DNA of 24,000 bases from Sphaerisporangium fuscum. GTDB lineage: Bacteria > Actinomycetota > Actinomycetes > Streptosporangiales > Streptosporangiaceae. The stretch's first letter is position 1, and the number at the start of each line of letters is the position of its first letter. The stretch is taken from positions 262,574 to 286,573 of the forward strand of contig NZ_JAHDTF010000005.1 of assembly GCF_018531465.1 (NCBI RefSeq). The letters are read 5' to 3'. Of the stretch, positions 4,434 through 21,985 are shown in pieces. The notes under the pieces are model-generated. The model was not told the DNA's origin. It saw only the letters and a program-made list of their open reading frames with translations, and made no database searches. Made by a program: the position numbers and the translations under genes.

Positions 4434-5860
4434 AGGCCGTATTCCTCCAGGAGGCGGAGCCACACCTCGCTCACGGTCGGGAACGCCGGGACCGCGTGCC
4501 ACAGCCGGTCGAGGGGGACCTCTCCGGTCACCGCGACGGTGGCCGCGTGGAGGTGGTCGACGACCCCGGGCCCGGCGAAGGTGGCGCCGAGGAGGACGCG
4601 GCGGTCCTCGTCGACGACGAGTTCGGCCCTGCCGGTGTAGTCCTCGCCCTGGAGGTAGGCACCGGCGACCGCGCCGATGTCGTACTCCACGGCGCGCACC
4701 CGGAAGCCGCCGGAACGCGCCTGGGCCTCGGTCCGGCCGACCGCCCAGACCTGCGGATCGGTGAAGATGACCTGGGGGGCGCCCTGGTGGTCGGCGGTGT
4801 CGCGCATCGACGGCCGGTCGTCGGGCAATCCCCGCGCGCGGGCGGCGATCACGTCGCCGCACACCCGGGCCTGGTATTTGCCCATGTGGGTGAGCAGGTT
4901 GAGCCCGTTGACGTCGCCGACGGCGTAGAGCCACCCGTCCGGGACACCGGTGGCCCGCATGCTCGCGTCCACCTCGATCGGGCCGTGGGTGTCCAGGCCG
5001 GCCGTCTCCAGGCCGATGTCGCCCACCGCCGGGCGGCGGCCGGTGCCGACCATGATCTCGTCCGCCTCGATCTCGGCGCCGTCGTCGGTGCGGACGGTGA
5101 CCGGGCCGTCCGGTAGCGGGCGCTCGACGGCGACGGGCGAGCGGCCGAAACGCAGGTCGATGCCCGACTCGCGGAACGACCTGGCCAGCAGCTCGCCGGC
5201 GAACGGCTCGAACCGGGCGAGCAGGCGGTCGCCGCGCACGAGCACGGTCGTCTCCAGGGCGCCGAGGGCGTGTAGCGCCTGGGCCATCTCGCACGCGACG
5301 GCCCCGCCGCCGATCACCACCAGCCGCTTCGGCACCTGCTGGACGCCGGTCGCCTCGCGGTTCGTCCACGGGGACGCCTCCCGCAGCCCGGGGACGCCGG
5401 GGATCAAGGGGTCGCTGCCGGTCGCCACGACGACGGCGTGCCTGGCGCGCAGCGCCCGCGTGCCGCCGTCCGGCGTCGCCACGTCCACCCGCAGAGGGCC
5501 GGCCAGGCGTCCCCGGCCGCGGACGAACGTCGCCGGGAGGTTCTCGATCCAGCGCACCTGGCCGTCGTCGTCGAGGTGGGACACCGCCTCGTCGCGGCGG
5601 GCCAGCACCTTGGCGGCGTCGATCGGTCCGCGCAGCTCCAGTCCCGGCACCCGGCGCACCTCGCCCGCCAGGCCCACCGGCCGCAGCAGCGCCTTGCTGG
5701 GGATGCACGCGTAGTAGGCGCACTCACCGCCCGCCAGGCGCTCCTCCACGACGGCGGCCGTGAGGCCGCCCCGTACGGCGCGACCGGCGGCGGTCTCCCC
5801 GACCGGCCCCGCACCGATCACGATCACGTCGAACACGTCGTCGTCCATGGGCACCTGCAC
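4430..5860 (-). CDS. Class I pyridine nucleotide-disulfide oxidoreductase (dihydrolipoyl dehydrogenase / mycothione-reductase-like flavoprotein)
   Basis: FAD fold DVIVIGAGPVGETAA, redox-active GGECAYYACIPSK (CxxxxC), and NAD fold LVVIGGGAVACEMA. The C-terminal dimerisation motif reads AFPTVSE, with Phe where the canonical HPTxSE has His. Confidence 0.85.
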   Translation of the reverse strand: MQVPMDDDVFDVIVIGAGPVGETAAGRAVRGGLTAAVVEERLAGGECAYYACIPSKALLRPVGLAGEVRRVPGLELRGPIDAAKVLARRDEAVSHLDDDGQVRWIENLPATFVRGRGRLAGPLRVDVATPDGGTRALRARHAVVVATGSDPLIPGVPGLREASPWTNREATGVQQVPKRLVVIGGGAVACEMAQALHALGALETTVLVRGDRLLARFEPFAGELLARSFRESGIDLRFGRSPVAVERPLPDGPVTVRTDDGAEIEADEIMVGTGRRPAVGDIGLETAGLDTHGPIEVDASMRATGVPDGWLYAVGDVNGLNLLTHMGKYQARVCGDVIAARARGLPDDRPSMRDTADHQGAPQVIFTDPQVWAVGRTEAQARSGGFRVRAVEYDIGAVAGAYLQGEDYTGRAELVVDEDRRVLLGATFAGPGVVDHLHAATVAVTGEVPLDRLWHAVPAFPTVSEVWLRLLEEYGL

Positions 5861-12138: not shown

Positions 12139-12831
12139 ATGATTCGAAGCATGAGCGGCGCCGTCGTCGATCTCCTGGAACGGCCGACCTACACGATGTC
12201 ACAGGTCGACCGGCTGATCGGTCTACCCTTGGGCACCGCGCGACGCTGGGTCGACGGATATTCCCGTAATGGCCGCACTTACGAGCCAGTCGTCCGGCAA
12301 AGCCGCACAGGCGACATGATGGCGACATGGGGCGAATTCGTGGAAGCCCGGCTGCTCGCCGAGTACCGCAACGCAGGCGTCCCCATGATCAACATGCGGC
12401 CGGCCATCACCAAGCTCAGAGCCGAGACCGGCGCCCGGTATCCCCTCGCACACCTGGCCAATTTCGTGACACCACACGGCAAAGAGCTTGTGTGGCGGGT
12501 GCAGGAGCAGGTGCGCCTGCAGGCGGAGCTTCTTCTCGTCATACCACGCAACGGGCAGTTGGTCATGGCCGAAGCCGTCGAGATCTTCGTCAATGCCGTG
12601 GAGTTCGACGACGACACCGTGGTGCGCATGCTTCCCGACCTCAGAACTCCGGAGGTCAAGATCGACCCACTGCGCGCCTTCGGCGAGCCCGCGGTCCGGT
12701 CGGTGCCCACCGAAGTGATCGCCGAGCAGGTTCGGGCGGGCGACTCCGAGGAATTGATCGCAGATCTCTACGAGCTGCCGCTGGAACAGGTGCGGCAAGC
12801 AGTTTTGTTCGAGAAGCTCCGCAGCGCCTGA
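12139..12831 (+). CDS. MerR-like HTH + DUF433 domain protein (antitoxin-like)
   Basis: The N-terminus YTMSQVDRLIGLPLGTARRWV is HTH-like. The C-terminus KIDPLRAFGEPAVRSVPTEVIAEQVRAGDSEELIADLYELPLEQVRQAVLFE fits the DUF433 pattern. GC3 is lower than in neighbouring genes. ATG 12151 is an alternative start. Confidence 0.7.
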   Translation: MIRSMSGAVVDLLERPTYTMSQVDRLIGLPLGTARRWVDGYSRNGRTYEPVVRQSRTGDMMATWGEFVEARLLAEYRNAGVPMINMRPAITKLRAETGARYPLAHLANFVTPHGKELVWRVQEQVRLQAELLLVIPRNGQLVMAEAVEIFVNAVEFDDDTVVRMLPDLRTPEVKIDPLRAFGEPAVRSVPTEVIAEQVRAGDSEELIADLYELPLEQVRQAVLFEKLRSA

Positions 12832-12846
12832 CCTACCCGGACCACC

Positions 12847-13275
12847 ATGCCCCCCATAGATCCGCGAGGTCTGCGCTTCTTCGTCGACGAGACCTCCCTC
12901 GGCGTCGGCCGCGCGCTTGCTCTCCTACGCCGGGACGTCATCCACACCAGCCATCCGCTGATCCCAGAGGTACCGCTCGGCACTTTGGACGACGAGTGGA
13001 TCCCCAAGGTCGCCGCCAGAGATCTCGTCGTCATCACACGAGACAAGCGCATCCGTACCAAGCACGCCAAGGCGATGCTCTACGCCGAGCACAAAGCGCG
13101 AGTCTTCTGGATCGCCGGCAAGAGAGATCTGTCCAACTGGGACACGATGTGCCTGCTCACCCGCCGATGGGACGACATCGAGCGCGAGATCAAGGAACAC
13201 GGCCCGGGACCGTGGTTCATGGCGATCAATGAGTCGAGGCTCAGTGAGATGTGCATACATGGAGATCGGCGCTAG
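12847..13275 (+). CDS. PIN-like (DUF5615 / Mut7-C-like) putative nuclease, toxin-like partner of the DUF433 protein
   Basis: LRFFVDETSLGVGRALALLRRDVIHTSHPLIPEVPLGTLDDEWIPKVAARDLVVITRDKRIR matches the DUF5615 layout: an acidic D/E near the N-terminus, D-x-E/W mid-region, and T-x-D after a hydrophobic strand. It lies 15 nt downstream of the DUF433 gene. Confidence 0.55.
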   Translation: MPPIDPRGLRFFVDETSLGVGRALALLRRDVIHTSHPLIPEVPLGTLDDEWIPKVAARDLVVITRDKRIRTKHAKAMLYAEHKARVFWIAGKRDLSNWDTMCLLTRRWDDIEREIKEHGPGPWFMAINESRLSEMCIHGDRR

Positions 13276-14428: not shown

Positions 14429-15527
14429 GGTCGTCGCCCAGAGCCGCCGCGATCTCGGCCGCGCGGGAGTGGTCGCCCAGGCGGCGGGTCAGGTACGCGG
14501 CGCCGTGGCGATGCCGGCGCGACCACCAGGCGGCGGAGCCGCCGATGCCGCCCTTGGCGATCTTGCCATGGTCGCGGACGAAGCCCAGCGTCCACGTGAT
14601 CCGGGTGCCGAAGACCTCATCGAAGTCCGTGACCTGCGGCTCCAGCAGCTCAGCGTGCAGCTCCGGCCCGAGCAGCCGGCGTACGGGACCGTCCTCGGCG
14701 GTGAGCTCCGCGAAGAAGCGGGCCATGGCGGTGGCGGTGGCGTGCAGGTTGACCGCGCCGAAGACCGACTGCCGCCAGGCCCGGGAGTTGGCCCGCTCGA
14801 CGTCGAGCACGCCGCCAGGGATCTGCAGCCACGGGGCCGCGTGCAGCAGGCGCGGCCAAGCCGGATCGGCGTACTCCAGGTCGGCGACGCGGCCCAGCTC
14901 GTCGTCCGGCACTCCGAACCAGGCGTCCAGGCCCAGCGCGGGGCGCACCACCCCGTCGTACACCTCGTGCAACGTGGTGCCGGCCGCCGCGCGCAGGATG
15001 CCGTCGACGAGGTGGCCGTAGGTCAGCGCGTGCTCGCCGAGCGAGCTGCCGGGTGGGTACTCCGGAGCCGCCGCCACCAGGCTCTCGCGCAGCGCGGCGT
15101 CGTCCAGCAGGTCCACCTCCGCCGCCGCGACCGGGAAGCGGGGCTGGCCGGCCCGGTGGGTGAGCACCTGCCGCAGCGTGGTCGCCTCCTTGCCGTTGAG
15201 ACCGTACGCGGGCCAGTGGCGGGCGATCGGCTCGTCCAGCGTCAGTGCGCCATCGCGCACCGCCACCAGGGCGGCGAGCGTGACGAACGACTTCGAGAGC
15301 GAGTAGGGCTGGACCAGCGTGCCCGCCTGCCAGGGACGGGTCCGCGCCGCATCGGCCCACCCCGCGTCGAGCCGGACGACCTCGCGCTCGTCCTTCCACA
15401 CCGACACGCCCGCCCCGGTCTCCCTGCCCTCGTCCACCAGCTTCCGGAAGACCTCGCGTACCGGCTCGTACCCATCCGCGACGAACCCTTCGACCTTCAC
15501 CCACGCTCTCCCTTCGCCGGAAGCCAC
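14406..15527 (-). CDS. Serine hydrolase, beta-lactamase/transpeptidase fold (class C / EstB-like esterase family), cytoplasmic
   Basis: The SxxK motif is in QPYSLSKSFVTLAALVAV. There is no signal peptide. Typical family length is about 370 aa. The start is GTG 15527; an internal GTG (VKVEGF...) is an alternative. Confidence 0.85.
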   Translation of the reverse strand: MASGEGRAWVKVEGFVADGYEPVREVFRKLVDEGRETGAGVSVWKDEREVVRLDAGWADAARTRPWQAGTLVQPYSLSKSFVTLAALVAVRDGALTLDEPIARHWPAYGLNGKEATTLRQVLTHRAGQPRFPVAAAEVDLLDDAALRESLVAAAPEYPPGSSLGEHALTYGHLVDGILRAAAGTTLHEVYDGVVRPALGLDAWFGVPDDELGRVADLEYADPAWPRLLHAAPWLQIPGGVLDVERANSRAWRQSVFGAVNLHATATAMARFFAELTAEDGPVRRLLGPELHAELLEPQVTDFDEVFGTRITWTLGFVRDHGKIAKGGIGGSAAWWSRRHRHGAAYLTRRLGDHSRAAEIAAALGDDLTVVGED

Positions 15528-15575
15528 AATAGTACCGCTACGGGGTATGGGTAGTACCGGCGTGGCTATTGTGGC
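15523..15575. promoter_or_regulatory. 10-bp inverted repeat GCCACAATAG...CTATTGTGGC enclosing two TAGTACCG direct repeats
   Basis: The arms lie at 15523..15532 and 15566..15575. TAGTACCG occurs at 15530..15537 and 15552..15559. The left arm overlaps the hydrolase GTG start. The element sits in the divergent region with the nitroreductase gene. Confidence 0.4.
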
Positions 15576-15675
15576 GGTTGTGTCGTCACATCCTGAGCCC
15601 CTTCGCCAACAGCCCGTGTTCCGCGCTCATGGTGATCTTGACGGAGGCGCTCGGACCGGTCCACCGGCGTCAGGT

Positions 15676-16245
15676 ATGAACACCCCGCAGCTCACATCGG
15701 CGCTACAGGGGCGTTTCAGTCCCCTGCGCTTCGATCCGAACCACCAGCTGTCCGACGCGGACGTCGTGACCGTGCTGGAGGCAGCCAGGTGGGCCCCCTC
15801 TGCCGGGAACGCTCAGCCCTGGTCGTTCCATGTGCGCCGGCGAGGAGAGGAGGGGCACGATCAACTTGTCGAACACCTCGCCGCGAGCTCACGCCGATGG
15901 GCACCCGCCGCCAGCGCGCTGGTCGTCAACATGGCTCGTCGCGAAGTCGACGACAGCGGCATGACCTACTCCGAGTTCGCCGACTACGACCTCGGCCAGG
16001 CGGTGGCCCACATGACTGTGCAGGCCCACGCGATGGGCCTGGCCTGCCGGCAGTTCCGCGCCTTCGATCTCGAAGGACTGCACGACACGCTCGGAGTCAG
16101 GCCCGGTTGGCACATCCTCACGATGACGGCCATCGGAGTTCCGCCCCGAGGCGACACGACACCGCCTGCACGAGAGCGCCGGAGCATCGTGGACCTACGA
16201 ACCGCAGGAGTGTCGTCTCCACCACACAGGCGTCTACAGGGGTGA
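15676..16245 (+). CDS. Nitroreductase-family protein
   Basis: RFSPLRFDPNHQLSDADVVTVLEAARWAPSAGNAQPWSFHV is the typical nitroreductase N-terminal signature. ATG 15676 was chosen because the track start (15319) is antisense to the neighbouring gene. Confidence 0.85.
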   Translation: MNTPQLTSALQGRFSPLRFDPNHQLSDADVVTVLEAARWAPSAGNAQPWSFHVRRRGEEGHDQLVEHLAASSRRWAPAASALVVNMARREVDDSGMTYSEFADYDLGQAVAHMTVQAHAMGLACRQFRAFDLEGLHDTLGVRPGWHILTMTAIGVPPRGDTTPPARERRSIVDLRTAGVSSPPHRRLQG

Positions 16246-16426: not shown

Positions 16427-16639
16427 TCAGAAGTCGAACTCGCCCTTCTTGGCGCCGTCGATGAACGCACTCCACACACTCGCGCTCAACACGAACGGCT
16501 CCTTCTCCGGAGCCTCGGTATCCCTCACCCCCACCCGCCCACCGGCCAGCGGAGCCACCTCCAGGCAGTTCCCCTGGTCCGACCCACTCTTGGTCGCCTT
16601 GCGCCAGGCAGCCGTCCTCAGCTCATCGTTCAGGTCCAC
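16427..16639 (-). CDS. DUF397 (BldB-like) small protein
   Basis: VDLNDELRTAAWRKATKSGSDQGNCLEVAPLAGGRVGVRDTEAPEKEPFVLSASVWSAFIDGAKKGEFDF has the WRKS..S....CVEVA...V.VRD...P signature. Its GTG start overlaps the upstream XRE gene end by 10 nt. Confidence 0.85.
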   Translation of the reverse strand: MDLNDELRTAAWRKATKSGSDQGNCLEVAPLAGGRVGVRDTEAPEKEPFVLSASVWSAFIDGAKKGEFDF

Positions 16640-17448
16640 TGCTTCTCCGCCTCTCTGATCAACTCGATGGATGCATGCTGGGGCTGCGCCTCGGCACGCA
16701 GTCTGTCGTATCGGGCATGGATAGCTTCGACGTCTTCTGGACGATTCGAGACATGACCATGGATAGCGGATTGGATATACACCGTATCTGGGCTTCCAGG
16801 AAGCTGCGCGATCACGAAGCCGCCAAGGATGCCCGTGGTCACCCCTGCCGCCATTGGGACTACCTGGATGCCGATGCGGGGCGAATCTACAGCTTGCAGG
16901 AGGCTTGCGATCTGGCGTCGCATGATCTCCTTACTACCTATCAAGCGGTATAGAACGCCTTCGTCTAGCAGCGCGCGCAGAAGTGGCGGATTGGCCCGAG
17001 AGAATATGCCCTGTCGCTCCATCCGGGCGGCGACCGCCTTCTCCACCTGTTCGTCGGTAATGCCAGGTTCTCCCCGGATAACCGCTCTTGCTTACTCCTC
17101 CGTTTGCAGCAGGCCAGGTACCACAAGGGGTTCCCAGGTATGAAGCGTATGGGCCTCTCGTTCAATACCGAGCCACCCGCGAAACCAGTGAGGGCTCACC
17201 TCCCCGATCAATTGGTGCCACAGGTTGACGAGCTCTCCCCCTGCGCCCAGGGCGTCGTCGCAGCGGTGGACCAAGGCAGGACTGGGGGTTCGCTGTCCTC
17301 GCTCGATGAAACCCAGGAGGCTACGACTGAAGCGGGCGGCCTTGGCCAACTGCTCTTGGGTCAAATTCGCCCTTCGTCGGTATCTGCGAAGTTCGCCCCC
17401 AAAGAGGTCCAGCGAGCCCGCTGACGGTTTTTTCTGATAAGAGACCAT
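16630..17448 (-). pseudogene. WhiJ-like XRE HTH + DUF5753 regulator interrupted by an in-frame TAA (17094..17092)
   Basis: The N-terminal part, ...LTQEQLAKAARFSRSLLGFIERGQRTPS...VVPGLLQTEE, stops at TAA. The same frame continues ARAVIRGEPGITDEQVEKAVAARMERQ...DSPRIGIQVVP...HASIELIREAEKQWT. The family consensus is PGLLQTxxYARA, so the stop sits where Tyr (TAC/TAT) is expected. GC3 is lower than in the flanking genes. Confidence 0.75.
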
Positions 17449-18013
17449 CTTCTTCGTCCCGTCCGACCAGTGATGCTACAGCGGCACAGGGATGACACAG
17501 GTCGCCACGAACTGTCCCCAGAGTGTGCCCCGATTTGCGATGCAAAAAGTATCGGACCCAAGGCACCCTGTGAAGGGCTGCGGAATACACGCAGATCAAG
17601 CGCCCATCACTTATCCATCTCTCCACTCATAGCCAAGCGCGGCTCACATAGCCACCAGATATATCCGGATAAATGATGCGCGATATGTCCAAGAAAGAGG
17701 CTTCAGTATGCGCCTTTAGGCGAATGATCGCCGTACCGGGCCGATAGAGAGTTGTCGCTAATCGGTAAGCCCCACATGTCACCATCCGCCGAACGACGGC
17801 ACGGGATTGACCTGGCGACGACCCGCCACAGCGGTACCGAGCAAGGGCCCGCACAACGAGCGGGTCAGGGCGACCCGCTGACCGGCCGGTAGCCGTTGGC
17901 CGTGGCCGGGCGGTCGAGCGGCGGCAGCCGTCGGGTGGGCCACCACATATCGCGATCTGGACCCAACTCGACCCATCGAGGAGGTGGCGGCGTGATGAGA
18001 AAGGAGCGTTCAA

Positions 18014-18778
18014 GTGCACGAACACGAGGCCGGCACCGCCGCGGAACGGCGGCTGCTCACGTCCGTGCTCGGCAGTGGGACAGGGCCGAGCGGGCAGCCG
18101 CTCGGCAGTTGGACCAGATGGAGCCGGTCGCCCGTCCCCGAACCCCTGCTCGTCCAGGCGCGCACCGCCGCCCAGCTACACGAACTGATAAGTGCGGCCG
18201 AACAAATCATGCCGTACCGCCCCTCCCCGGCTCCGCCCCCGCACCGACCGATCGACCTGCCCGATGCGACACCGGCCGACCCCATTGTGCCCCCGCCCCC
18301 GCGTCGACCGGCCGACCTGCTGCAACCGGTCATCCATCCGACCGTCCCACCACCCACCCCACCCCATGGAGCACCGATGCCTGAGACACCGGACGGCGGT
18401 CTACGTACCGTCTGCTGGGACCTGCCCGGCGACCTGTCGATGATCGGTAAGGCGCGCGGAATGGTGAAAGAGATTCTCGCCGCCTGGGCCTTGCCTGATC
18501 ATCTGGCCGACGACGTGGTTCTCGCTGTCGGGGAACTGCTCGCCAACGCCATGACCTACGGGAAGCCACCGGTGAGGCTGTCACTGTGGCAGCGCGGAGG
18601 TGAGCTGTGTGTCCGTGTCTCCGACCACGGCCCGGAGCAGCCGCGTCATCTGGACCTCGGCATCGAGGCCGTACACGGCCGAGGCCTGGCCATCGTGGCC
18701 GCCCTCGCCCACGAACACGGCATCACGCCGCTTCCTGACGGGCCGGGGAAGACGGTCTGGGCGCTGTGGCGCGTCTAG
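18014..18778 (+). CDS. ATP-binding protein of the anti-sigma-factor/HATPase_c_2 type (AbaA-cluster-like) with a roughly 120-aa Pro-rich N-terminal extension
   Basis: The C-terminus CWDLPGDLSMIGKARGMVKEILAAWALPDHLADDVVLAVGELLANAMTYGKPPVRLSLWQRGGELCVRVSDHGP...GRGLAIVAALAHEHGI is typical of this type. A strong AAGGAG at 18001..18006 lies 7 nt before GTG 18014, and GC3 is high throughout the extension. ATG 18377 would give the usual roughly 133-aa form. Confidence 0.75.
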   Translation: MHEHEAGTAAERRLLTSVLGSGTGPSGQPLGSWTRWSRSPVPEPLLVQARTAAQLHELISAAEQIMPYRPSPAPPPHRPIDLPDATPADPIVPPPPRRPADLLQPVIHPTVPPPTPPHGAPMPETPDGGLRTVCWDLPGDLSMIGKARGMVKEILAAWALPDHLADDVVLAVGELLANAMTYGKPPVRLSLWQRGGELCVRVSDHGPEQPRHLDLGIEAVHGRGLAIVAALAHEHGITPLPDGPGKTVWALWRV

Positions 18779-18885
18779 GGAGCACCGCGAGGTCCACCGG
18801 TTGCCCGCCGTACGGCGGCGCCGGCTTCGCCGCACTTCCTCCCGCCGCCCCGGCGCCGAGGGAAAGCACCAGACACAGCGCCGGA

Positions 18886-18921
18886 GGAAGGACGCCGGCC
18901 GGCTCAGGCCGGCGTCCTTCC
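18886..18921. terminator. Perfect 15-bp stem hairpin downstream of the ATP-binding protein gene
   Basis: GGAAGGACGCCGGCC ggctca GGCCGGCGTCCTTCC. There is no U-tract on the + strand. Confidence 0.5.
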
Positions 18922-18961
18922 CCCGGAAATCCGGTTGGCCCGCCACCTAGGTAAACGGCCA

Positions 18962-19088
18962 GACAGTCGGCCCGGGACCGGCGTGAACGGGTGGGTGGTT
19001 GGCTCGGGGGCTTCTGGAGCAGGCGGACGGTTGGCCTCGGGCCGGCGTGAACGGGTGGGTGGTTGGCTCGGGGGGTTCGGGAGCGGAT
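18962..19088. repeat. Two tandem copies of a roughly 64-bp unit with a 33-bp identical core, upstream of the E1-like gene
   Basis: The core CCGGCGTGAACGGGTGGGTGGTTGGCTCGGGGG occurs at 18978..19010 and 19042..19074. Flanking bases are partly conserved (gtcggcc-cggga vs gttggcctcggg; cttctggagcagg vs ttcgggagcgg). A 64-bp period is not a multiple of 3, so this is not a coding repeat. Confidence 0.85.
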
Positions 19089-19150
19089 AGAACTGAGCGG
19101 TAATCACATTCTGGTCATCTCGGTCGGTCACGTGAAGGAGAAGCGGCTCC

Positions 19151-20239
19151 ATGCGATTACCTCGGGTGAAGGCGGAACACCGTCCGCACCGGTATGGCGA
19201 CGGGGTGATACGCATCGGAGGCGAGATCTACGGGCTCGCCGCCGAAATCAGTGATCCGAATGGATGGGCGTGGGCCGCGCTCGACCTGATGGACGGAACA
19301 CGCGAGACGCACGACATCATCGCCATTCTGTGCGATTCGCTGCCCGGGATTTCCCGCGGGCAGGCGCAGGTCGTCGTGGAGACCCTTGTGGCGTCCGGAT
19401 ACGTCGAAAGCGGCGACGACGCCGTACCTCCCGGGCTCCACGAGGACGAGGTGGAGAGGTACAGCCGCAACCGCGCCTTCTTCCGGCGGGCCGATCTCAC
19501 TCCGGGCGAGCACGGGTGGGAGGCACAGCTGCGGCTGAAGTCCGCGCGGGTGCTCGTCCTCGGTCTGGGCGGCACGGGAGGGCACGCGGTCTGGGCGCTG
19601 GCCGCCGCCGGAGTCGGAGCGCTGCACTGCGTCGATCCCGACGTCGTGGAGTTGTCCAACCTGAGCCGCCAGGTGCTGTACGACGAGGAGGACGTGGGCA
19701 GGCCGAAGGTCGAGGCCGCGCTGGACCGGCTCCGGCGGACGAACTCGGCGATCGAGGTGACCGGCGAGCGGCGCCGGATCTGCTCGCGGGACGACCTGGC
19801 CGCGCTGGTCGGCGGCTTCGACGTGCTCGCGCTCTGCGCCGACGAGCCGCGCGGCACCGACGGCGTCCGTATCTGGGCCGACCAGGTGTGCGCGGCGGCC
19901 GGCATTCCCTGGGTGGGCGGCGGCTACAACGGGCCTCTGGTCACCGTGGGCGTCTTCGGGCCCGGTGGCACCTGCTACGAGTGCCTGAGCGCGGCAGAGC
20001 AGGCCCGTCTGCGGCCCGGCACACCCGTGGACCTGGGAGGGCCGGGGGCGCTGGCCACCACTGCCGGGATATCGGGCCAGCTCACCGCGCACGCGGTGAT
20101 CGCGCTCCTCACCGGCGTGCCGCGCCTGACCCCCGGCTACGTCACCGGGGTCAACCTGATCGCGCCCGAGCACCACGTGTACGTACGCCACCCACCGCGC
20201 CCCGGCTGCCCCACCTGCGGGCCGGGCGAGAGGTCCTGA
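19151..20239 (+). CDS. E1-like adenylyltransferase (ThiF/MoeB/MccB superfamily) with N-terminal PqqD/RRE-like peptide-binding domain, 362 aa
   Basis: E1 core motifs are ERYSRNRAFF, the Gly-rich loop VLGLGGTGG, VDPDVVELSNLSRQ, GRPKV and LALCADE, plus two CxxC pairs (CYEC at aa 275-278, CPTC at aa 353-356). N-terminal aa 1-90 reads ...GDGVIRIGGEIYGLAAEISDPNGWAWAALDLMDGTRETHDIIAILCDSLPGISRGQAQVVVETLVASGYVE, which is RRE/PqqD-like. AAGGAG at 19135..19140 lies upstream of ATG 19151. Confidence 0.85.
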   Translation: MRLPRVKAEHRPHRYGDGVIRIGGEIYGLAAEISDPNGWAWAALDLMDGTRETHDIIAILCDSLPGISRGQAQVVVETLVASGYVESGDDAVPPGLHEDEVERYSRNRAFFRRADLTPGEHGWEAQLRLKSARVLVLGLGGTGGHAVWALAAAGVGALHCVDPDVVELSNLSRQVLYDEEDVGRPKVEAALDRLRRTNSAIEVTGERRRICSRDDLAALVGGFDVLALCADEPRGTDGVRIWADQVCAAAGIPWVGGGYNGPLVTVGVFGPGGTCYECLSAAEQARLRPGTPVDLGGPGALATTAGISGQLTAHAVIALLTGVPRLTPGYVTGVNLIAPEHHVYVRHPPRPGCPTCGPGERS

Positions 20240-20389
20240 CACCCGGCGGGCGGCCGGACCGTCGAGATCTTGTGGGGGAACGTTCACGTCTCGACCCGCC
20301 CTCGACGTGCGATGACAGGTTCCTTGACCCTGGGTTGTCATTGCATGGATCATCCAATACGTCCTTTCCCCTCCGCAGAAAGGCACGAC

Positions 20390-20497
20390 ATGGAAGAGCC
20401 GAAGTACGACGACGAGCCGGCGCCGGTCGTAGAGATCAGCATTCGGCTTCTGGACCGGGCCGAGACCACCGCGGTCAGCGGTTCCATCGGTAATTGA
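20390..20497 (+). CDS. 35-aa candidate precursor peptide MEEPKYDDEPAPVVEISIRLLDRAETTAVSGSIGN (C-terminal Asn)
   Basis: AGAAAGG at 20377..20383 lies 6 nt before ATG 20390. GC3 rises from about 50% in the preceding in-frame codons to about 80% within this ORF. A 12-13-bp terminator-like hairpin starts 9 nt after the stop. The ORF sits 150 nt downstream of the RRE-E1 gene on the same strand. Confidence 0.5.
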   Translation: MEEPKYDDEPAPVVEISIRLLDRAETTAVSGSIGN

Positions 20498-20505
20498 AAG
20501 CCGTG

Positions 20506-20533
20506 GCGGGCGGGCCCCTCGGGGCTCGCCCGC
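20506..20533 (+). terminator. GC-rich hairpin immediately after the small ORF
   Basis: GCGGGCGGGCCCC tc GGGGCTCGCCCGC has one G-U pair, and the effective loop is cctcgg-like. Confidence 0.5.
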
Positions 20534-20545
20534 TCGACCGTTCCC

Positions 20546-20584
20546 GGAGGCCGGATGGCCCGGATCGAGGTCCGGGCCACCTCC
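20546..20584 (-). terminator. Hairpin downstream of the minus-strand serine hydrolase gene
   Basis: The 9-bp stem TGGCCCGGA tcgagg TCCGGGCCA is extended by GGAGG/CCTCC across a 5-nt bulge. It lies 15 nt beyond the stop at 20599..20601. Confidence 0.4.
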
Positions 20585-20598
20585 CGTGGAGCGCGGCG

Positions 20599-21804
20599 TC
20601 AGGAGGTGAAGGCGGCCAGGCCGATGGTCTGGAGAAGGGCGGAGTCGCCCTTGGTGGTGGAGTTGACCGAGGCGACGATGCGGCGCTGGAGGTCGCGGGT
20701 GGCGAACATCCCGGTGCTGTAGCCGTAACGGCTGCCCGTCTTTCCGTAGATGGTGGCGCCGCCGGTGAGCTTCATGACGGTCATGCCCATGGTGTAGGCG
20801 GCCGGCTTGTCGTTCCCGGGGTCGTCGTCTCCGTCGTACATGACCACGCCATCCCGGACGGTGAACATCTTCTCCAGTTGGGCGGGAGGGAGGAGGCGGC
20901 CCCGGAAGAGGGCGGTCATGAAGCGGTCCAGGTCGTCAGTGGTCGAGATCATCTCACCGGCGGCCCAGGTGATGCTCTGGCTCATCTCCGTCACGTCCAC
21001 CAGTTCGGTCTTCCCGTCCTCGCCCCTGACGGCCATGTACCCCTTGGCGTGCGGCCCGGGGATGCGGATGCCGTCGCCGGGCAGGGTGGTGTGCTTCAGG
21101 CCGAGCGGGCGGACGACCCGCTCGCGCACCACGTCCTCGTACGACCTGCCGGTGATCTTCTCGATGAGCATGCCGAGCAGGATGTAGTTGGTGTTCAGGT
21201 AGTGCTGCTTGGTACCGGGCGTGAACTCCATCGGGTTCTTCGCGACGCCCGCCATCCACTGCTCCGGCGTCCACTTGTCGTAGCGGTGGTCGAGGATCCA
21301 CTTGTCGTCGTCGGGGAAGGTCGGGGCGGGCAGGCCACTGGTGTGGTCGAGGAGCTGCCCGACCGTGACGGGCGGGAAGGCGGCGGGCAGCAGGCCGGGG
21401 AGGTACTCCTGGACGGTGCCCTCCAGGTCGACCTTCTTCTCGGCGACCAGCTGGAGGACGACGGTGGCGGTGAAGACCTTGGTCACGCTGCCGATCCGGA
21501 ACCTGGCGCCGTCCGGCACCGGCCGCCCGGTCTTCAGGTCGCCGACACCCGACTTGCCGGTCCAGGAACCGGCGGTGCCGCGCACCTGGACGAGGGCGCC
21601 GGTCGTCTGCGCGTTCGGGAGACCGGCGATGGAGGCGCACATCGCCTCGGCGTTCAGCGGAGGGAGCGAGGTCGCGCCGACGGCGCTCGTGGCCGCCGAG
21701 CACACGGGCCTCGGCGCCGGCGTGGCGGACGCCGCCAGTGCGGGAGAGAGGGACCCCGCCACCACGGTGGCGGCCAGGGCGAGGGTCACGACCGGCTTGT
21801 ACAT
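20599..21804 (-). CDS. Secreted serine hydrolase, beta-lactamase fold (S12 D-alanyl-D-alanine carboxypeptidase / R61-like)
   Basis: The signal peptide is MYKPVVTLALAATVVAGSLSPALAASA. The SxxK motif is in FRIGSVTKVFTATVVLQLV, and the YxN motif is in HYLNTNYILLG. GAGGAG lies 5 nt before ATG 21804; the track start (21897) is upstream of the SD. Confidence 0.85.
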   Translation of the reverse strand: MYKPVVTLALAATVVAGSLSPALAASATPAPRPVCSAATSAVGATSLPPLNAEAMCASIAGLPNAQTTGALVQVRGTAGSWTGKSGVGDLKTGRPVPDGARFRIGSVTKVFTATVVLQLVAEKKVDLEGTVQEYLPGLLPAAFPPVTVGQLLDHTSGLPAPTFPDDDKWILDHRYDKWTPEQWMAGVAKNPMEFTPGTKQHYLNTNYILLGMLIEKITGRSYEDVVRERVVRPLGLKHTTLPGDGIRIPGPHAKGYMAVRGEDGKTELVDVTEMSQSITWAAGEMISTTDDLDRFMTALFRGRLLPPAQLEKMFTVRDGVVMYDGDDDPGNDKPAAYTMGMTVMKLTGGATIYGKTGSRYGYSTGMFATRDLQRRIVASVNSTTKGDSALLQTIGLAAFTS

Positions 21805-21814
21805 ATCTGCTCCT

Positions 21815-21843
21815 CGATGGGATCTTCGTCGGTGATCCCATCG
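21815..21843 (-). promoter_or_regulatory. 10-bp perfect inverted repeat abutting the SD of the S12 hydrolase gene
   Basis: CGATGGGATC ttcgtcggt GATCCCATCG on the + strand. On the mRNA strand the 3' arm ends directly at the GAGGAG SD. Confidence 0.35.
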
Positions 21844-21985
21844 TTGCTTCGGCCGCCCTCGCGGCGGATCGCCTGTGCGAGCGGTCTTCCGACTCACCCG
21901 GCGGAGGGATCCGGCGGCCGACGGCCTCGCGCCACTCCCCCGGAAGGACGAGGCCCGGACCCGTGCGTATCGGCGGCTTCGATGG

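What the first reader, a model, noticed from the sequence alone, without database searches (positions are those of the whole stretch)
19151..20533. Orphan two-gene module: RRE-fused, catalytically intact E1-like adenylyltransferase plus a 35-codon ORF ending in Asn (candidate microcin-C-like or novel E1-dependent RiPP)
Seen in sequence:
- The 362-aa protein keeps every E1 adenylation element: RYSR, GLGGTGG, VDPDVVELSNLSRQ, RPK, the ADE acidic site, and two CxxC pairs about 78 aa apart.
- It carries a roughly 90-aa N-terminal domain with a PqqD/RRE-like pattern (WAALDLMDGTRETHDIIAIL...VVETLVASGYVE).
- A short ORF with its own SD and terminator hairpin follows 150 nt downstream and ends ...GSIGN-stop.

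Established knowledge:
- E. coli MccB (350 aa) has the same layout: an N-terminal peptide clamp, an E1 fold and a 4-Cys Zn site. It adenylates the obligatory C-terminal Asn of MccA.
- Longer MccA precursors exist (Yersinia, Bacillus, cyanobacteria).
- PaaA (pantocin A) is another RRE-E1 RiPP enzyme.

Inference:
- This is a minimal peptide-modifying E1 system in an actinomycete.
- The window contains no MccC-type exporter, MccD/E or MccF. It also has no YcaO partner (as in TOMM C-proteins) and no E2, JAMM or beta-grasp protein (as in Ub-like systems).
- It therefore does not fit any described cluster architecture.
Basis: partly seen in the sequence, partly recalled or inferred. Interest (0 to 1): 0.85.

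Follow-up and report, generated by a model that had tools for sequence, protein, structure and literature searches.

The report
Actinomycete E1-like enzyme with precursor peptide
A real two-gene unit, an ATP-using E1-like enzyme with a built-in peptide-docking domain plus its 35-residue substrate peptide, belongs to a large, uncharacterised family of modified-peptide gene clusters in actinomycetes, and the family's pattern points to ring closure of the peptide tail rather than a microcin-C-type nucleotide antibiotic.

Summary
ORF 19151-20239 encodes a 362-aa protein with an N-terminal PaaA/MccB-type peptide-recognition domain (RRE) fused to an intact ThiF/E1 adenylation domain. A 35-codon ORF (20390-20497) lies 150 nt downstream, with a promoter-like site, a Shine-Dalgarno sequence and a -33 kcal/mol hairpin.

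The short ORF is a true precursor gene. A homologous peptide sits next to all 30 full-length homologues examined. 146 relatives at 50% identity share the leader motif I-x-I-R-x-L-D-K-x-E-T-T.

The microcin-C reading is only partly supported. The window peptide and its nearest relatives end in Asn, but 71% of 154 distinct family tails do not, and 31 contain no Asn. The conserved features are:
- a tail of about 8 residues;
- Ser, Cys, Lys or Thr at tail position 3;
- Gly at position -2.

I therefore favour adenylation of the C-terminal carboxylate followed by attack of Ser30, giving a 6-residue macrolactone. This follows IndF/GrcB logic and yields an AIP-like product. It is inferred, not shown.

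"Orphan" holds only for the window clade. Most relatives add a PqqD-fused, YydH-like M50 membrane protease, and many add an M14 carboxypeptidase or DUF6879. The family is uncharacterised in the literature I could search: a new variant of a known kind.

The parts
19151..19435 (+). N-terminal peptide-recognition (RRE, PaaA/MccB clamp-like) domain of the E1-like enzyme, aa 1 to about 95
   Evidence: PaaA (5FF5) aligns over aa 4-204. 12 of 35 family members hit Pfam PaaA-like_N and 2 hit PqqD. The AF2 model shows strands 4-6, 19-23 and 30-34 followed by helices 39-46, 53-63 and 69-81. The full-length Foldseek match to MccB includes this domain.
19436..20239 (+). ThiF/E1 adenylation domain (aa about 96-362) with a Cys4 zinc site; the end coordinate includes the stop codon
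   Evidence: Pfam ThiF E 1.7e-43. GxGGxG, SNLxRQ, K186, D231, Y259 and C275/C278/C353/C356 are invariant in the family. D231 and Y259 align with the MccB catalytic residues D214 and Y239 (residue roles from PMC8323819). The crossover loop (aa 280-300) has no Cys.
20324..20353 (+). Promoter-like site in front of the precursor gene (TTGACC, 18 nt, GATCAT)
   Evidence: 1 site found against 0.0 expected in shuffles. This is a consensus match only; function is not shown.
20377..20383 (+). Shine-Dalgarno-like AGAAAGG, 6 nt upstream of the ATG
   Evidence: Read from the sequence.
20390..20470 (+). Leader part of the precursor peptide (aa 1-27, MEEPKYDDEPAPVVEISIRLLDRAETT), carrying the family motif I-x-I-R-x-L-D-K/R-x-E-T-T
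   Evidence: I16, I18, R19, L21, E25 and T26 are invariant or nearly so in the alignments. The peptide HMM finds a homologue beside 26 of 30 E1 loci. 146 relatives at 50% identity were found.
20471..20497 (+). Tail (putative core) AVSGSIGN plus stop codon: Ser30 at tail position 3, Gly34 at -2, Asn35 at the C-terminus
   Evidence: Tail statistics over 154 distinct tails: length 8 in 83; Ser/Cys/Lys/Thr at position 3 in 128; Gly at -2 in 80; Asn last in 45.
20502..20536 (+). GC-rich hairpin (13 bp stem plus 2 further pairs, no U-tract). It is a likely terminator shared with the convergent gene 20599-21897(-).
   Evidence: -33 kcal/mol, z = -3.41, 0 of 200 shuffles fold as well. The consensus terminator scan found none because there is no T-run.

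Best explanation
The two genes form a minimal RiPP (ribosomally made, post-translationally modified peptide) unit. It belongs to a large, uncharacterised actinomycete family built around an RRE-fused ThiF-like adenylyltransferase.

Proposed mechanism:
1. The leader's beta-strand motif (I-S-I-R-L-L-D-R-A-E-T-T) docks on the enzyme's N-terminal RRE.
2. The flexible 8-residue tail AVSGSIGN threads into the adenylation site.
3. The enzyme uses ATP/Mg to adenylate the C-terminal alpha-carboxylate of Asn35.
4. The side chain at tail position 3 (Ser30 here; Cys, Lys or Thr in other members) captures the acyl-adenylate.
5. AMP is released, leaving a six-residue macrolactone, cyclo(Ser30-Gly-Ser-Ile-Gly-Asn35). 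Other members would give a thiolactone or lactam. The net change is -18 Da.
6. In most relatives a PqqD-fused, YydH-like M50 membrane protease would then remove the leader. The window clade has lost that gene, so leader removal is either done by an unlinked protease or omitted.

Shown: the domain architecture, the intact catalytic residues, the conserved enzyme-precursor pairing, purifying selection on the peptide, and the positional constraints on the tail.

Inferred: which carboxylate is activated, the nucleophile, the ring, the proteolysis step and any biological activity. The strong core conservation among Streptomyces species hints at a signalling or physiological role rather than an antibiotic one.
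For: **Enzyme**
- RRE + ThiF architecture with all ATP, Mg and Zn residues present.
- Tyr259 and Asp231 match the catalytic Tyr239 and Asp214 of MccB (roles from PMC8323819).
- The crossover loop has no Cys and the window has no beta-grasp carrier gene, so thiocarboxylate or thioester chemistry is unlikely.

**Pairing**
- A precursor lies next to the E1 gene in 30 of 30 full-length loci: 26 of the main type and 4 of a second type.
- Gene order and strand vary, which argues for functional rather than accidental linkage.
- pN/pS of the short ORF is 0.25-0.70.

**Tail constraints, 154 distinct tails**
- Length is 8 in 83 tails and 7-10 in 150.
- Position 3 is Ser in 104, Cys in 11, Lys in 9 and Thr in 4. 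That is 80 of 83 among the 8-mers; p = 4e-27 for Ser against tail composition.
- Every common residue at that position is a nucleophile.
- Gly is at -2 in 80 tails (p = 3e-15), as in the GG tails of E1 substrates.
- The last residue varies (N, S, G, A, T, E, Q), as expected if only its alpha-carboxylate matters.
- In tails such as GPSSNPSG versus VPSNPSGN the inner motif shifts by one place, but Ser3 and the total length of 8 are kept.
- The second precursor type obeys the same rule (TFSGNQAN, TFCDKADS).

**Enzyme versus tail ending**
- No E1 alignment column separates Asn-ending partners from the others.

**Precedent**
- RRE-ThiF enzymes activate a carboxylate that an intramolecular nucleophile then attacks: IndF (C-terminus to Trp, PMC12150305), GrcB (thiolactone) and EnfB (imide) (PMC12596934).
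Against: - No chemistry was observed. The mechanism rests on conservation patterns only.
- Ester (Ser-to-C-terminus) formation has no precedent among ThiF-like enzymes in the reviews I read.
- Ser is 26% of tail residues, so part of the Ser3 signal could reflect protease or RRE recognition instead.
- The invariant Glu25 in E-T-T is an alternative carboxylate.
- Asn is about twofold enriched at the last position (45 of 154, p = 3e-6) and is fixed in the window clade. This model does not explain that.
- The role of the M14 carboxypeptidase, which co-occurs with tails not ending in Asn, is also unexplained.
- The window has no protease or exporter gene, so a mature secreted product is not assured.
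Confidence: 0.4

Rival explanations
1. Microcin-C-like system. The enzyme adenylates the C-terminal Asn35, a succinimide forms, and a second NTP is attacked to give a peptidyl-nucleotide with an N-P bond. The product would be a Trojan-horse aspartyl-tRNA synthetase inhibitor. In relatives whose tails carry residues after an internal Asn, the M14 carboxypeptidase would first trim back to that Asn.
For: - The best structural match is full-length MccB.
- The equivalents of D214 and Y239 are conserved.
- The window peptide and its closest relatives all end in ...SIGN, and nearby Streptosporangiaceae tails end in N.
- Asn is the commonest last residue (45 of 154, twofold enriched, p = 3e-6).
- 123 of 154 tails contain Asn.
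- M14 presence tracks the tail ending. Of 17 M14-positive loci, 16 have tails not ending in Asn; of 10 M14-negative loci, 8 have tails ending in Asn.
- Long MccA precursors (17-56 aa) with later proteolysis are known (PMC6495379, PMC8323819).
Against: - A C-terminal Asn is 'the only strict requirement' of known MccA peptides (PMC8323819). Yet 109 of 154 tails do not end in Asn and 31 have none.
- Asn-free precursors sit in intact peptide-ThiF-M50 operons without M14.
- This model does not explain the conserved Ser/Cys/Lys at position 3 or the fixed 8-residue tail length.
- There is no MccC-type exporter and no MccE/F/H-type immunity gene in the window, nor conserved across the related loci. 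A producer of an AspRS poison would be expected to have them.
- No E1 column distinguishes Asn-ending partners.
- The M14 association is confounded by phylogeny: all M14-positive loci are Streptomyces.
Confidence: 0.2
2. PaaA/GrcB-type side-chain activation. The enzyme adenylates the invariant Glu25 of the E-T-T motif (or Asp/Glu at tail position 2 in other members). A neighbouring nucleophile (Ser30, Thr26/27 or a backbone amide) closes a lactone or imide ring. The residues after the ring act as a follower.
For: - Glu25 and Thr26 are invariant in every alignment.
- The spacing E-T-T-x-x-S/C is fixed relative to the RRE-binding strand.
- By sequence the N-domain is closest to PaaA.
- PaaA and GrcB both activate Glu side chains (PMC12596934).
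- Lys at position 3 co-varies with Ile replacing the second Thr (ETI...xxK). This suggests contact between the motif and tail position 3.
Against: - Invariant residues at the leader-core junction are equally expected for enzyme or protease recognition.
- A mere follower should not be held to about 8 residues with Gly at -2.
- In the second precursor type, the acidic residues before T-F-S vary in number and spacing.
- Asp/Glu at tail position 2 is absent from the window clade.
Confidence: 0.2
3. A decaying remnant. After losing the M50 protease and DUF6879 genes, the window's pair no longer makes a product, or the enzyme serves another substrate.
For: - No homologue of the M50-like, M14-like or DUF6879 genes was found in the 24 kb window.
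- No Sphaerisporangium fuscum or Sinosporangium entry appears among the 120 best M50-like homologues, although six other Sphaerisporangium entries do.
Against: - All family-invariant enzyme residues are intact in the window protein.
- The two-gene arrangement persists in three species of two genera, with different flanking genes.
- pN/pS of the peptide within this clade is 0.36-0.45.
- The peptide keeps its own promoter-like site, SD and terminator hairpin.
Confidence: 0.07
4. A housekeeping or sulfur-carrier E1 (ThiF/MoeB/MoeZ), a TOMM docking protein, or a Cap2/Bil-type defence E1, with the short ORF being accidental.
For: - NCBI labels it 'HesA/MoeB/ThiF family protein'.
- The adenylation domain scores best against MoeB by sequence (E 4e-28).
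- PADLOC E1-E2 models hit aa 128-231.
Against: - Every NCBIfam score is far below its cutoff, e.g. MoeB 120.8 bits against 266.
- The extra RRE domain is absent from MoeB and ThiF. Foldseek covers only about 60% of the query against them.
- There is no catalytic loop Cys, no rhodanese domain, and no ThiS/MoaD, YcaO or E2 gene in the window.
- The PADLOC hits cover only the generic Rossmann segment.
- The short ORF is conserved in 30 of 30 loci.
Confidence: 0.03

Closest known systems
MccB/MccA (microcin C7, E. coli; PDB 3H5N, 6OM4)
   Same: - Two-domain enzyme: an N-terminal peptide clamp (RRE) plus an E1 adenylation fold with a Cys4 zinc site.
- It is the best structural match (TM 0.71-0.75).
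- The catalytic Asp and Tyr are conserved.
- The substrate is a short ribosomal peptide whose C-terminus enters the active site.
- The window peptide ends in Asn.
   Different: - Sequence identity is only about 23%.
- The precursor is 35 aa with a conserved leader motif rather than a heptapeptide.
- The family does not require a C-terminal Asn.
- There are no MccC, D, E or F genes.
- Relatives carry an M50 protease instead.
IndF/IndA (Streptococcus pneumoniae indolylamide RiPP, PMC12150305)
   Same: - A minimal cluster built on an RRE-ThiF enzyme and a short precursor.
- The C-terminal carboxylate is adenylated and then captured by a side chain a few residues upstream, forming a small C-terminal macrocycle (-18 Da).
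- A metalloprotease removes the leader.
- The core starts E-D-T-T, compared with E-T-T here.
   Different: - The nucleophile there is the Trp indole nitrogen, giving a 4-residue ring. Here Ser (or Cys/Lys) is proposed, giving a 6-residue ring.
- The protease is M16 rather than M50.
- A transporter is present there and absent here.
- The host is a Firmicute.
PaaA/PaaP (pantocin A; PDB 5FF5)
   Same: - It is the closest relative by sequence over the N-terminal domain (alignment aa 4-204, E 7e-25; Pfam PaaA-like_N hits in 12 of 35 family members).
- It is an RRE-E1 RiPP enzyme.
   Different: - PaaP has a Glu-Glu-Asn core in the middle of the peptide, followed by a long follower.
- Here there is no EEN, and the conserved features lie in a short C-terminal tail.
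GrcB (streptococcal thiolactone RiPP) and EnfB (enterofaecin), reviewed in PMC12596934 and PMC12250964
   Same: Both are RRE-ThiF enzymes that make small C-terminal rings by ATP-dependent dehydration. Family members with Cys at tail position 3 would give thiolactones.
   Different: - GrcB joins a Glu side chain to a C-terminal Cys, the reverse orientation.
- Its cluster has radical-SAM partners.
- Both come from Lactobacillales.
AgrD/AgrB autoinducing peptides (staphylococci)
   Same: This is a works-like comparison only. The predicted product is a short peptide whose Ser or Cys side chain is esterified to its own C-terminus. A membrane-embedded peptidase is encoded alongside in most relatives.
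   Different: The enzymology is unrelated: AgrB is a cysteine endopeptidase that cyclises during cleavage. The ring there has 5 residues. No signalling role has been shown here.
YydH (Bacillus subtilis yydFGHIJ M50 protease)
   Same: The partner gene found in most relatives is labelled 'putative peptide zinc metalloprotease' or 'PqqD family protein'. It carries an HExxH motif in a polytopic membrane protein.
   Different: It is absent from the window. The Pfam M50 score is below threshold (E 3e-4 at best), and it is fused to a PqqD-like N-terminal segment.

Membership tests
RRE-fused ThiF-like RiPP adenylyltransferases (MccB, PaaA, GrcB, EnfB, IndF) | N-terminal RiPP recognition element fused to a ThiF/E1 adenylation domain | tested here: met
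RRE-fused ThiF-like RiPP adenylyltransferases (MccB, PaaA, GrcB, EnfB, IndF) | Intact nucleotide- and Mg-binding residues (GxGxxG, Arg/Lys, Asp) and the active-site Tyr | tested here: met
   G138-G143, R173, K186, D231 and Y259 are invariant. They align to MccB D214 and Y239.
RRE-fused ThiF-like RiPP adenylyltransferases (MccB, PaaA, GrcB, EnfB, IndF) | A conserved short precursor gene next to the enzyme | tested here: met
   30 of 30 full-length loci. pN/pS below 1.
RRE-fused ThiF-like RiPP adenylyltransferases (MccB, PaaA, GrcB, EnfB, IndF) | ATP-dependent modification of the precursor | not testable with these tools
   Needs in vitro reconstitution and LC-MS.
Microcin C-like (mcc) systems | Precursor ends in Asn (the only strict requirement, PMC8323819): the window peptide itself | tested here: met
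   The peptide ends ...GSIGN-stop. The same ending is found in L081 and L083.
Microcin C-like (mcc) systems | C-terminal Asn conserved across the enzyme's precursor family | tested here: not met
   45 of 154 distinct tails end in Asn and 31 have no Asn. Asn-free operons are intact.
Microcin C-like (mcc) systems | Minimal cluster mccABC: an MccC-type export pump beside mccA and mccB | tested here: not met
   No transporter family was found among the window ORFs. None is conserved in the related loci.
Microcin C-like (mcc) systems | Product carries a nucleotide on the C-terminal residue through an N-P bond | not testable with these tools
   Needs mass spectrometry.
Pantocin-type (PaaA/PaaP) | Precursor with an internal Glu-Glu-Asn core and a follower peptide | tested here: not met
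   No EEN in the 35-mer or in the family consensus.
TOMM/LAP E1-like docking proteins | A YcaO cyclodehydratase partner (and usually a dehydrogenase) in the cluster | tested here: not met
   No YcaO in the window or the related loci. The nitroreductase at 15319-16245 is not SagB-type and is absent from related loci.
ThiF/MoeB/MoeZ sulfur-carrier E1 | Scores above the curated family cutoff, a beta-grasp GG carrier partner, and a loop Cys or rhodanese domain | tested here: not met
   NCBIfam scores are 120 bits or less against cutoffs of 150-650. No ThiS/MoaD in the window. No Cys in aa 280-300.
Cap2/Bil defence E1 | A fused or adjacent E2, plus a JAB or target protein | tested here: not met
   PADLOC hits cover only aa 128-231 of longer E1-E2 profiles. 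There is no E2 or JAB gene.

The most novel reading that the evidence does not exclude
The family makes a new RiPP class: small peptides whose Ser, Cys or Lys side chain at a fixed position is joined to the peptide's own C-terminus by an E1-like enzyme. This would be the first ester- or lactam-forming ThiF-like reaction. Because the products would resemble AIPs and the cores are near-identical across many Streptomyces species, they could be a previously unrecognised class of actinomycete signalling peptides.
Probability: 0.3. Interest if true: 0.75.

Novelty: new variant of a known kind. Interest (0 to 1): 0.58.

Why it matters
ThiF-like RiPP enzymes are a small group of characterised cases (MccB, PaaA, GrcB, EnfB, IndF), and each turned out to perform a different reaction. 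A 2025 survey counted 27,400 RRE-ThiF fusions, most of them unexplored (PMC12150305).

This window gives the smallest possible entry point, one enzyme and one 35-residue peptide, into a family spread over Streptomyces, Streptosporangiaceae, Micromonospora, Nocardia, Amycolatopsis, Saccharothrix and an Acidimicrobiales MAG.

The comparative data yield a precise, cheap test: a -18 Da product that depends on Ser30, against a +NMP product that depends on Asn35. If the ring model holds, it adds a reaction type to E1-like enzymes and points to possible cyclic-peptide signals in antibiotic-producing actinomycetes. If the microcin-C model holds for the Asn-ending clade, these would, as far as the literature I searched shows, be the first characterised actinomycete peptidyl-nucleotides (predicted mcc-like clusters in Actinobacteria are mentioned in PMC8323819).

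Tried and rejected
1. **Co-folding.** I built enzyme-linker-peptide chimeras with a paired alignment (A4).
2. **Partner genes in the window.** tblastn with M50-like, M14-like, DUF6879, PepN and AfsR-like proteins from related loci found nothing better than E 0.06.
3. **Rfam.** No RNA family matched 18700-20700.
4. **Terminator scan.** The consensus scan found none because the hairpin has no T-run. Folding shows the hairpin directly.
5. **Lasso-peptide reading.** I considered this because of the Thr near the leader end. I rejected it: there is no acidic residue at core positions 7-9 and no lasso cyclase or B-protein gene.
6. **Nitroreductase at 15319-16245.** I considered it as a TOMM dehydrogenase. 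I rejected it: it is not SagB-type, three unrelated genes separate it from the pair, and it is absent from relatives.
7. **PepN next to seven Streptomyces loci.** This is probably conserved chromosomal synteny. It is not present in other genera.
8. **Literature.** Searches and reviews gave no description of this family. A 2021 review mentions unnamed actinobacterial mcc-like clusters with asnS, but its supplement is not held. The 2019 mBio table contains no actinomycete entries.
9. **Specificity-determining column.** I looked for an E1 alignment column that tracks Asn-ending precursors and found none.
10. **M14 as a trimming enzyme.** The M14-tail association is real in counts, but I did not use it as strong evidence because all M14-positive loci are Streptomyces.
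Full report
**1. What is in the window**

The window matches Sphaerisporangium fuscum: the database protein P0001 is 100% identical over its 344 aa. ORF 19151-20239 (+) encodes 362 aa. It scores Pfam ThiF at E 1.7e-43 over aa 122-336.

- RYSR at aa 103-106
- GLGGTGG at 138-144
- VDPDVVELSNLSRQ at 161-174
- RPK at 184-186
- ADE at 230-232
- C275-x-x-C278 and C353-x-x-C356, 78 residues apart

In an alignment of 35 family members at 55-74% identity these residues are invariant or nearly so. NCBIfam models for ThiF, MoeB, MoeZ, UbaA and TcdA all score far below their cutoffs, for example 120.8 bits against 266. The protein is therefore not one of the housekeeping E1s.

**2. The N-terminal domain**

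Taken alone, aa 17-59 hit Pfam PaaA-like_N only weakly (E 0.052). Four further results settle the assignment.
- 12 of 35 family members hit that model (best E 8e-7) and 2 hit PqqD.
- A sequence search of the PDB aligns PaaA (5FF5) over aa 4-204, E 7e-25.
- The AlphaFold2 model is confident (mean pLDDT 89.4, pTM 0.88). It shows three strands followed by three helices, the RRE layout.
- Foldseek ranks full-length MccB first (E 1e-24, TM 0.71-0.75, about 368 aligned columns) and PaaA next. MoeB and ThiF cover only the C-terminal 60% of the query.

The two residues named as key for MccB catalysis are D214 and Y239 (PMC8323819). They align with D231 and Y259, and both are invariant in the family. 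MoeB has Ala at the Tyr position. The crossover loop (aa 280-300, the only low-confidence stretch of the model) has no cysteine.

The conserved N-terminus (M-R-x-P-R-V-K-x-E-H) supports the ATG at 19151. The NCBI record starts 18 codons later.

**3. The short ORF**

ORF 20390-20497 encodes MEEPKYDDEPAPVVEISIRLLDRAETTAVSGSIGN. It starts 150 nt after the E1 stop codon.
- AGAAAGG lies 6 nt upstream of the ATG.
- A sigma-70-like site lies at 20324-20353. One was found against 0.0 expected.
- A 13-bp GC stem follows at 20502-20536: -33 kcal/mol, z = -3.4.

The same 35-aa sequence is on record in the protein collection from the same contig, though unnamed (P0214).

**4. Is the short ORF a real gene linked to the enzyme?**

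A scan of one genome per species returned 556 relatives of the enzyme. Thirty of the 80 loci kept are full-length, with the RRE domain, at 43-67% identity. They come from Streptomyces, Microbispora, Sphaerisporangium, Micromonospora, Amycolatopsis, Saccharothrix and an Acidimicrobiales MAG.

A profile built from three peptides, then from twenty, finds a homologous short ORF within a few hundred bases of the enzyme gene in 26 of the 30 loci. Its position varies:
- downstream on the same strand in Streptosporangiaceae;
- upstream and divergent in most Streptomyces;
- upstream on the same strand in others;
- sometimes as two tandem copies with different tails (L008, L011, L029, L032).

The four remaining loci (L004, L013, L019, L022) carry a second, distantly similar type directly upstream. 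Examples are ...VVIEFVEVDLDTEPVTFSGNQAN and ...VIEFVEYEQRMTFCDKADS. All 30 loci therefore have a precursor next to the enzyme.

Between the window and its relatives, differences concentrate at third codon positions, and pN/pS is 0.25-0.70.

A word-indexed search found 152 peptide homologues. A full profile search of 1.84 billion representatives found 146 at E ≤ 1e-3. All are unnamed 'hypothetical' proteins without Pfam families.

**5. What the family's clusters look like**

I clustered the neighbouring ORFs of the 30 loci and ran Pfam and NCBIfam on representatives. Three recurring partners emerged.
- **An M50-like membrane protein of about 400 aa.** It lies directly after the enzyme gene in at least 19 loci. 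It has a PqqD-like N-terminal segment and an HExxH motif. Pfam M50 scores only weakly (E 3e-4). Database sources label it 'PqqD family protein', 'putative peptide zinc metalloprotease protein' (the YydH label) or 'Peptidase M50'.
- **An M14 carboxypeptidase-like protein.** It is found in 17 loci (E 3e-9), all Streptomyces, on the peptide side.
- **DUF6879**, in some loci.

No transporter is conserved.

None of the three partners has a homologue anywhere in the 24 kb window. The window's other genes encode an S8 subtilase, a pyridine-nucleotide-disulfide oxidoreductase, TetR, a SpoIIE phosphatase, a B12-binding protein, hydrolases, a PIN/HTH pair, two beta-lactamase-family proteins, a nitroreductase, an XRE/DUF397/HATPase_c_2 trio and a UvrD-like helicase. 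None is RiPP-related.

The two closest relatives of the window enzyme are from Sinosporangium siamense (74% identity) and S. album (72%). They are also bare enzyme-peptide pairs, with different flanking genes. Their peptides are MDGLKYEDDASPLVEITIRLLTRLETTSLSNSIGN and ...HISIRLLHRFETTDLSNSIGN.

The next relatives, L082 and L085 (66-70% identity by tool and alignment), have the full peptide, DUF6879 and M50-like set. No S. fuscum or Sinosporangium protein is among the 120 best M50-like homologues, although six other Sphaerisporangium entries are.

The two-gene state is thus a derived but maintained condition of one small clade.

**6. Test of the microcin-C reading**

Known MccA peptides share one strict requirement, a C-terminal Asn, and the minimal cluster is mccABC (PMC8323819). 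I collected 154 distinct tails, meaning the residues after the E-T-T motif.
- The last residue is N in 45, S in 34, G in 30, A in 15, T in 11, and another residue in the rest.
- Asn is about twofold enriched at that position over tail composition (p = 3e-6). Even so, 71% of tails do not end in Asn.
- 31 tails have no Asn at all.
- Two such precursors, SDGSGSGAT in Nocardia vinacea and SDSGGGSAE in a metagenome contig, sit in intact peptide-ThiF-M50-like operons.
- No exporter or MccE/F/H-type gene is present.
- No column of the enzyme alignment separates Asn-ending partners from the others.

One pattern favours the reading. M14-positive loci almost always have tails with residues after an internal Asn (16 of 17), and M14-negative loci mostly end in Asn (8 of 10). 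That would fit trimming back to Asn. However, all M14-positive loci are Streptomyces, so phylogeny confounds the association.

The window peptide therefore meets the MccA criterion, but the family to which its enzyme belongs does not.

**7. What is conserved instead**

- The leader motif I-x-I-R-x-L-D-K/R-x-E-T-T is invariant or nearly so.
- Tail length is 8 in 83 of 154 tails and 7-10 in 150.
- Tail position 3 is Ser in 104, Cys in 11, Lys in 9 and Thr in 4. That is 128 of 154 overall and 80 of 83 among 8-mers; for Ser alone p = 4e-27 against composition. Every frequent residue at this position is a side-chain nucleophile.
- Gly is at -2 in 80 tails (p = 3e-15).
- In pairs such as VPSNPSGN and GPSSNPSG the inner S-N-P-S-G motif slides by one place. 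Ser3 and the total length of 8 are kept.
- In 10-mers the nucleophile keeps its distance from the C-terminus (-6 in 9 of 13). In 7-mers it keeps position 3.
- The second precursor type obeys the same rule (TFS..., TFC..., length 8-9).
- Lys at position 3 goes with E-T-I instead of E-T-T.

**8. Mechanism**

By established knowledge, ThiF-like enzymes activate a carboxylate as an acyl-nucleotide. In RiPPs, different nucleophiles then attack that intermediate:
- MccB: succinimide, then an N-P bond;
- PaaA: a Glu side chain;
- GrcB: Glu to Cys thiolactone;
- EnfB: C-terminal imide;
- IndF: C-terminus to Trp indole

(PMC12596934, PMC12250964, PMC12150305).

The only carboxylates always present in these precursors are the C-terminal alpha-carboxylate and Glu25 of E-T-T. 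Three features fit best with adenylation of the C-terminus and capture by residue 3: the fixed tail length, the small residue at -2, and the free choice of last residue combined with a fixed nucleophile at position 3. For the window this gives cyclo(Ser30...Asn35), a six-residue macrolactone. I put this at about 0.4.

The rivals are:
- MccB-type nucleotidylation of Asn35, at least in the Asn-ending clades (0.2);
- Glu25 side-chain activation (0.2);
- a decaying remnant (0.07);
- misassigned housekeeping, TOMM or defence E1 (0.03).

None of the chemistry is shown.

**9. Novelty**

The two 2025 reviews of ThiF-like RiPP enzymes list no actinomycete member. Literature searches for ThiF-like RiPPs in Streptomyces or actinobacteria returned nothing that describes this family. 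The IndF study notes 27,400 RRE-ThiF fusions and 'several' unexplored network clusters. The general kind is therefore known and anticipated.

A 2021 review mentions unnamed actinobacterial mcc-like clusters that include asnS. I saw no tRNA-synthetase gene in these loci and could not read that paper's table.

My rating is a new variant of a known kind: a real, widespread and uncharacterised family with a specific prediction. It is not a categorically new system.

**10. Verdict**

Interest is 0.58. The finding is a good genome-mining lead with a cheap decisive experiment. It is less surprising than first scored, for three reasons:
- the 'orphan' architecture is a reduced form of an ordinary RiPP cluster;
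- the microcin-C hallmark fails across the family;
- uncharacterised RRE-ThiF clusters are already known to exist in large numbers.

Noticed in passing
window 18962-19084 (+): Two tandem copies of a 59-nt direct repeat (88% identical, 64-nt spacing) share an exact 33-nt core, CCGGCGTGAACGGGTGGGTGGTTGGCTCGGGGG. They lie between the HATPase_c_2 gene and the E1 start. There is no other copy in the window or in the 88 loci fetched. They may be an operator or regulatory element for the E1 gene.
   Followed up: partly
window 18881-18926: A 20-nt inverted repeat (95% complementary, 6-nt loop) lies about 100 nt downstream of the HATPase_c_2 gene (stop at 18778). It looks like a terminator.
   Followed up: no
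window 16427-18778: A WhiJ/BldB/AbaA-like trio is present: DUF397 (16639..16427, -), an XRE regulator and an HATPase_c_2 protein (18014-18778, +). The XRE gene is split into two ORFs. 17448..17092 carries HTH_31 plus the first 30 positions of DUF5753, and 17046..16630 carries DUF5753 positions 48-178. This suggests a frameshift, a pseudogene or a sequencing error.
   Followed up: partly
window 19151-19204: The NCBI protein for this gene (P0001, 344 aa) starts 18 codons downstream of the ATG at 19151. It therefore omits the conserved N-terminal strand (P4, K7 and H10 are nearly invariant in the family), so the deposited start is probably too short.
   Followed up: yes
L004:4903-4970, L013:4906-4980, L019:4886-4954, L022:4911-4982 (all +): A second, divergent precursor type lies directly upstream of the E1 gene in Saccharothrix and Amycolatopsis loci. 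The leader is (V)VIEFVEV followed by an acidic stretch. The tails are TFSGNQAN, TFCDKADS, TFSGTDSEA and TFSPNGGQS. AfsR/SARP-like NB-ARC-TPR regulators flank these loci.
   Followed up: partly
L008, L011, L029, L032 (about 4680-4905, - strand; L032 551-800): Two tandem precursor genes with different tails, GDSGGNGGS and GDSNSQGA, sit next to one enzyme gene. These two cores are almost identical across dozens of Streptomyces species (27 and 18 protein clusters). Such conservation is unusual for an antibiotic RiPP and hints at a physiological or signalling role.
   Followed up: no
family precursors (P0125, P0430, P0441, P0452, P0472, P0474; L003): There is covariation in the precursors. When tail position 3 is Lys instead of Ser, the motif E-T-T usually becomes E-T-I (for example ETI-ENKCMCG and ETI-GRKSIDG).
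   Followed up: no
Streptomyces E1 homologues (e.g. L011, L016), aligned to window aa about 285-300: Streptomyces-type enzymes carry a conserved insertion in the crossover-loop region (RDLRLAPGQDE-x-VASPRMPWNP). The window type has ARLRPGTPVDLGGPG there. This is the loop that helps clamp the peptide in MccB (role from PMC8323819).
   Followed up: no
window 12139-13275 (+): An HTH_66/DUF433 protein is followed by a PIN_10 protein, a likely toxin-antitoxin pair. It lies in the lowest-GC part of the window (62% against about 72%).
   Followed up: no
window 15319-16245 (+): A nitroreductase-family protein lies 3 kb upstream (E 7e-17). It is not a SagB/ThcOx-type dehydrogenase and is absent from related loci, so I judge it unrelated to the E1 module.
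   Followed up: yes
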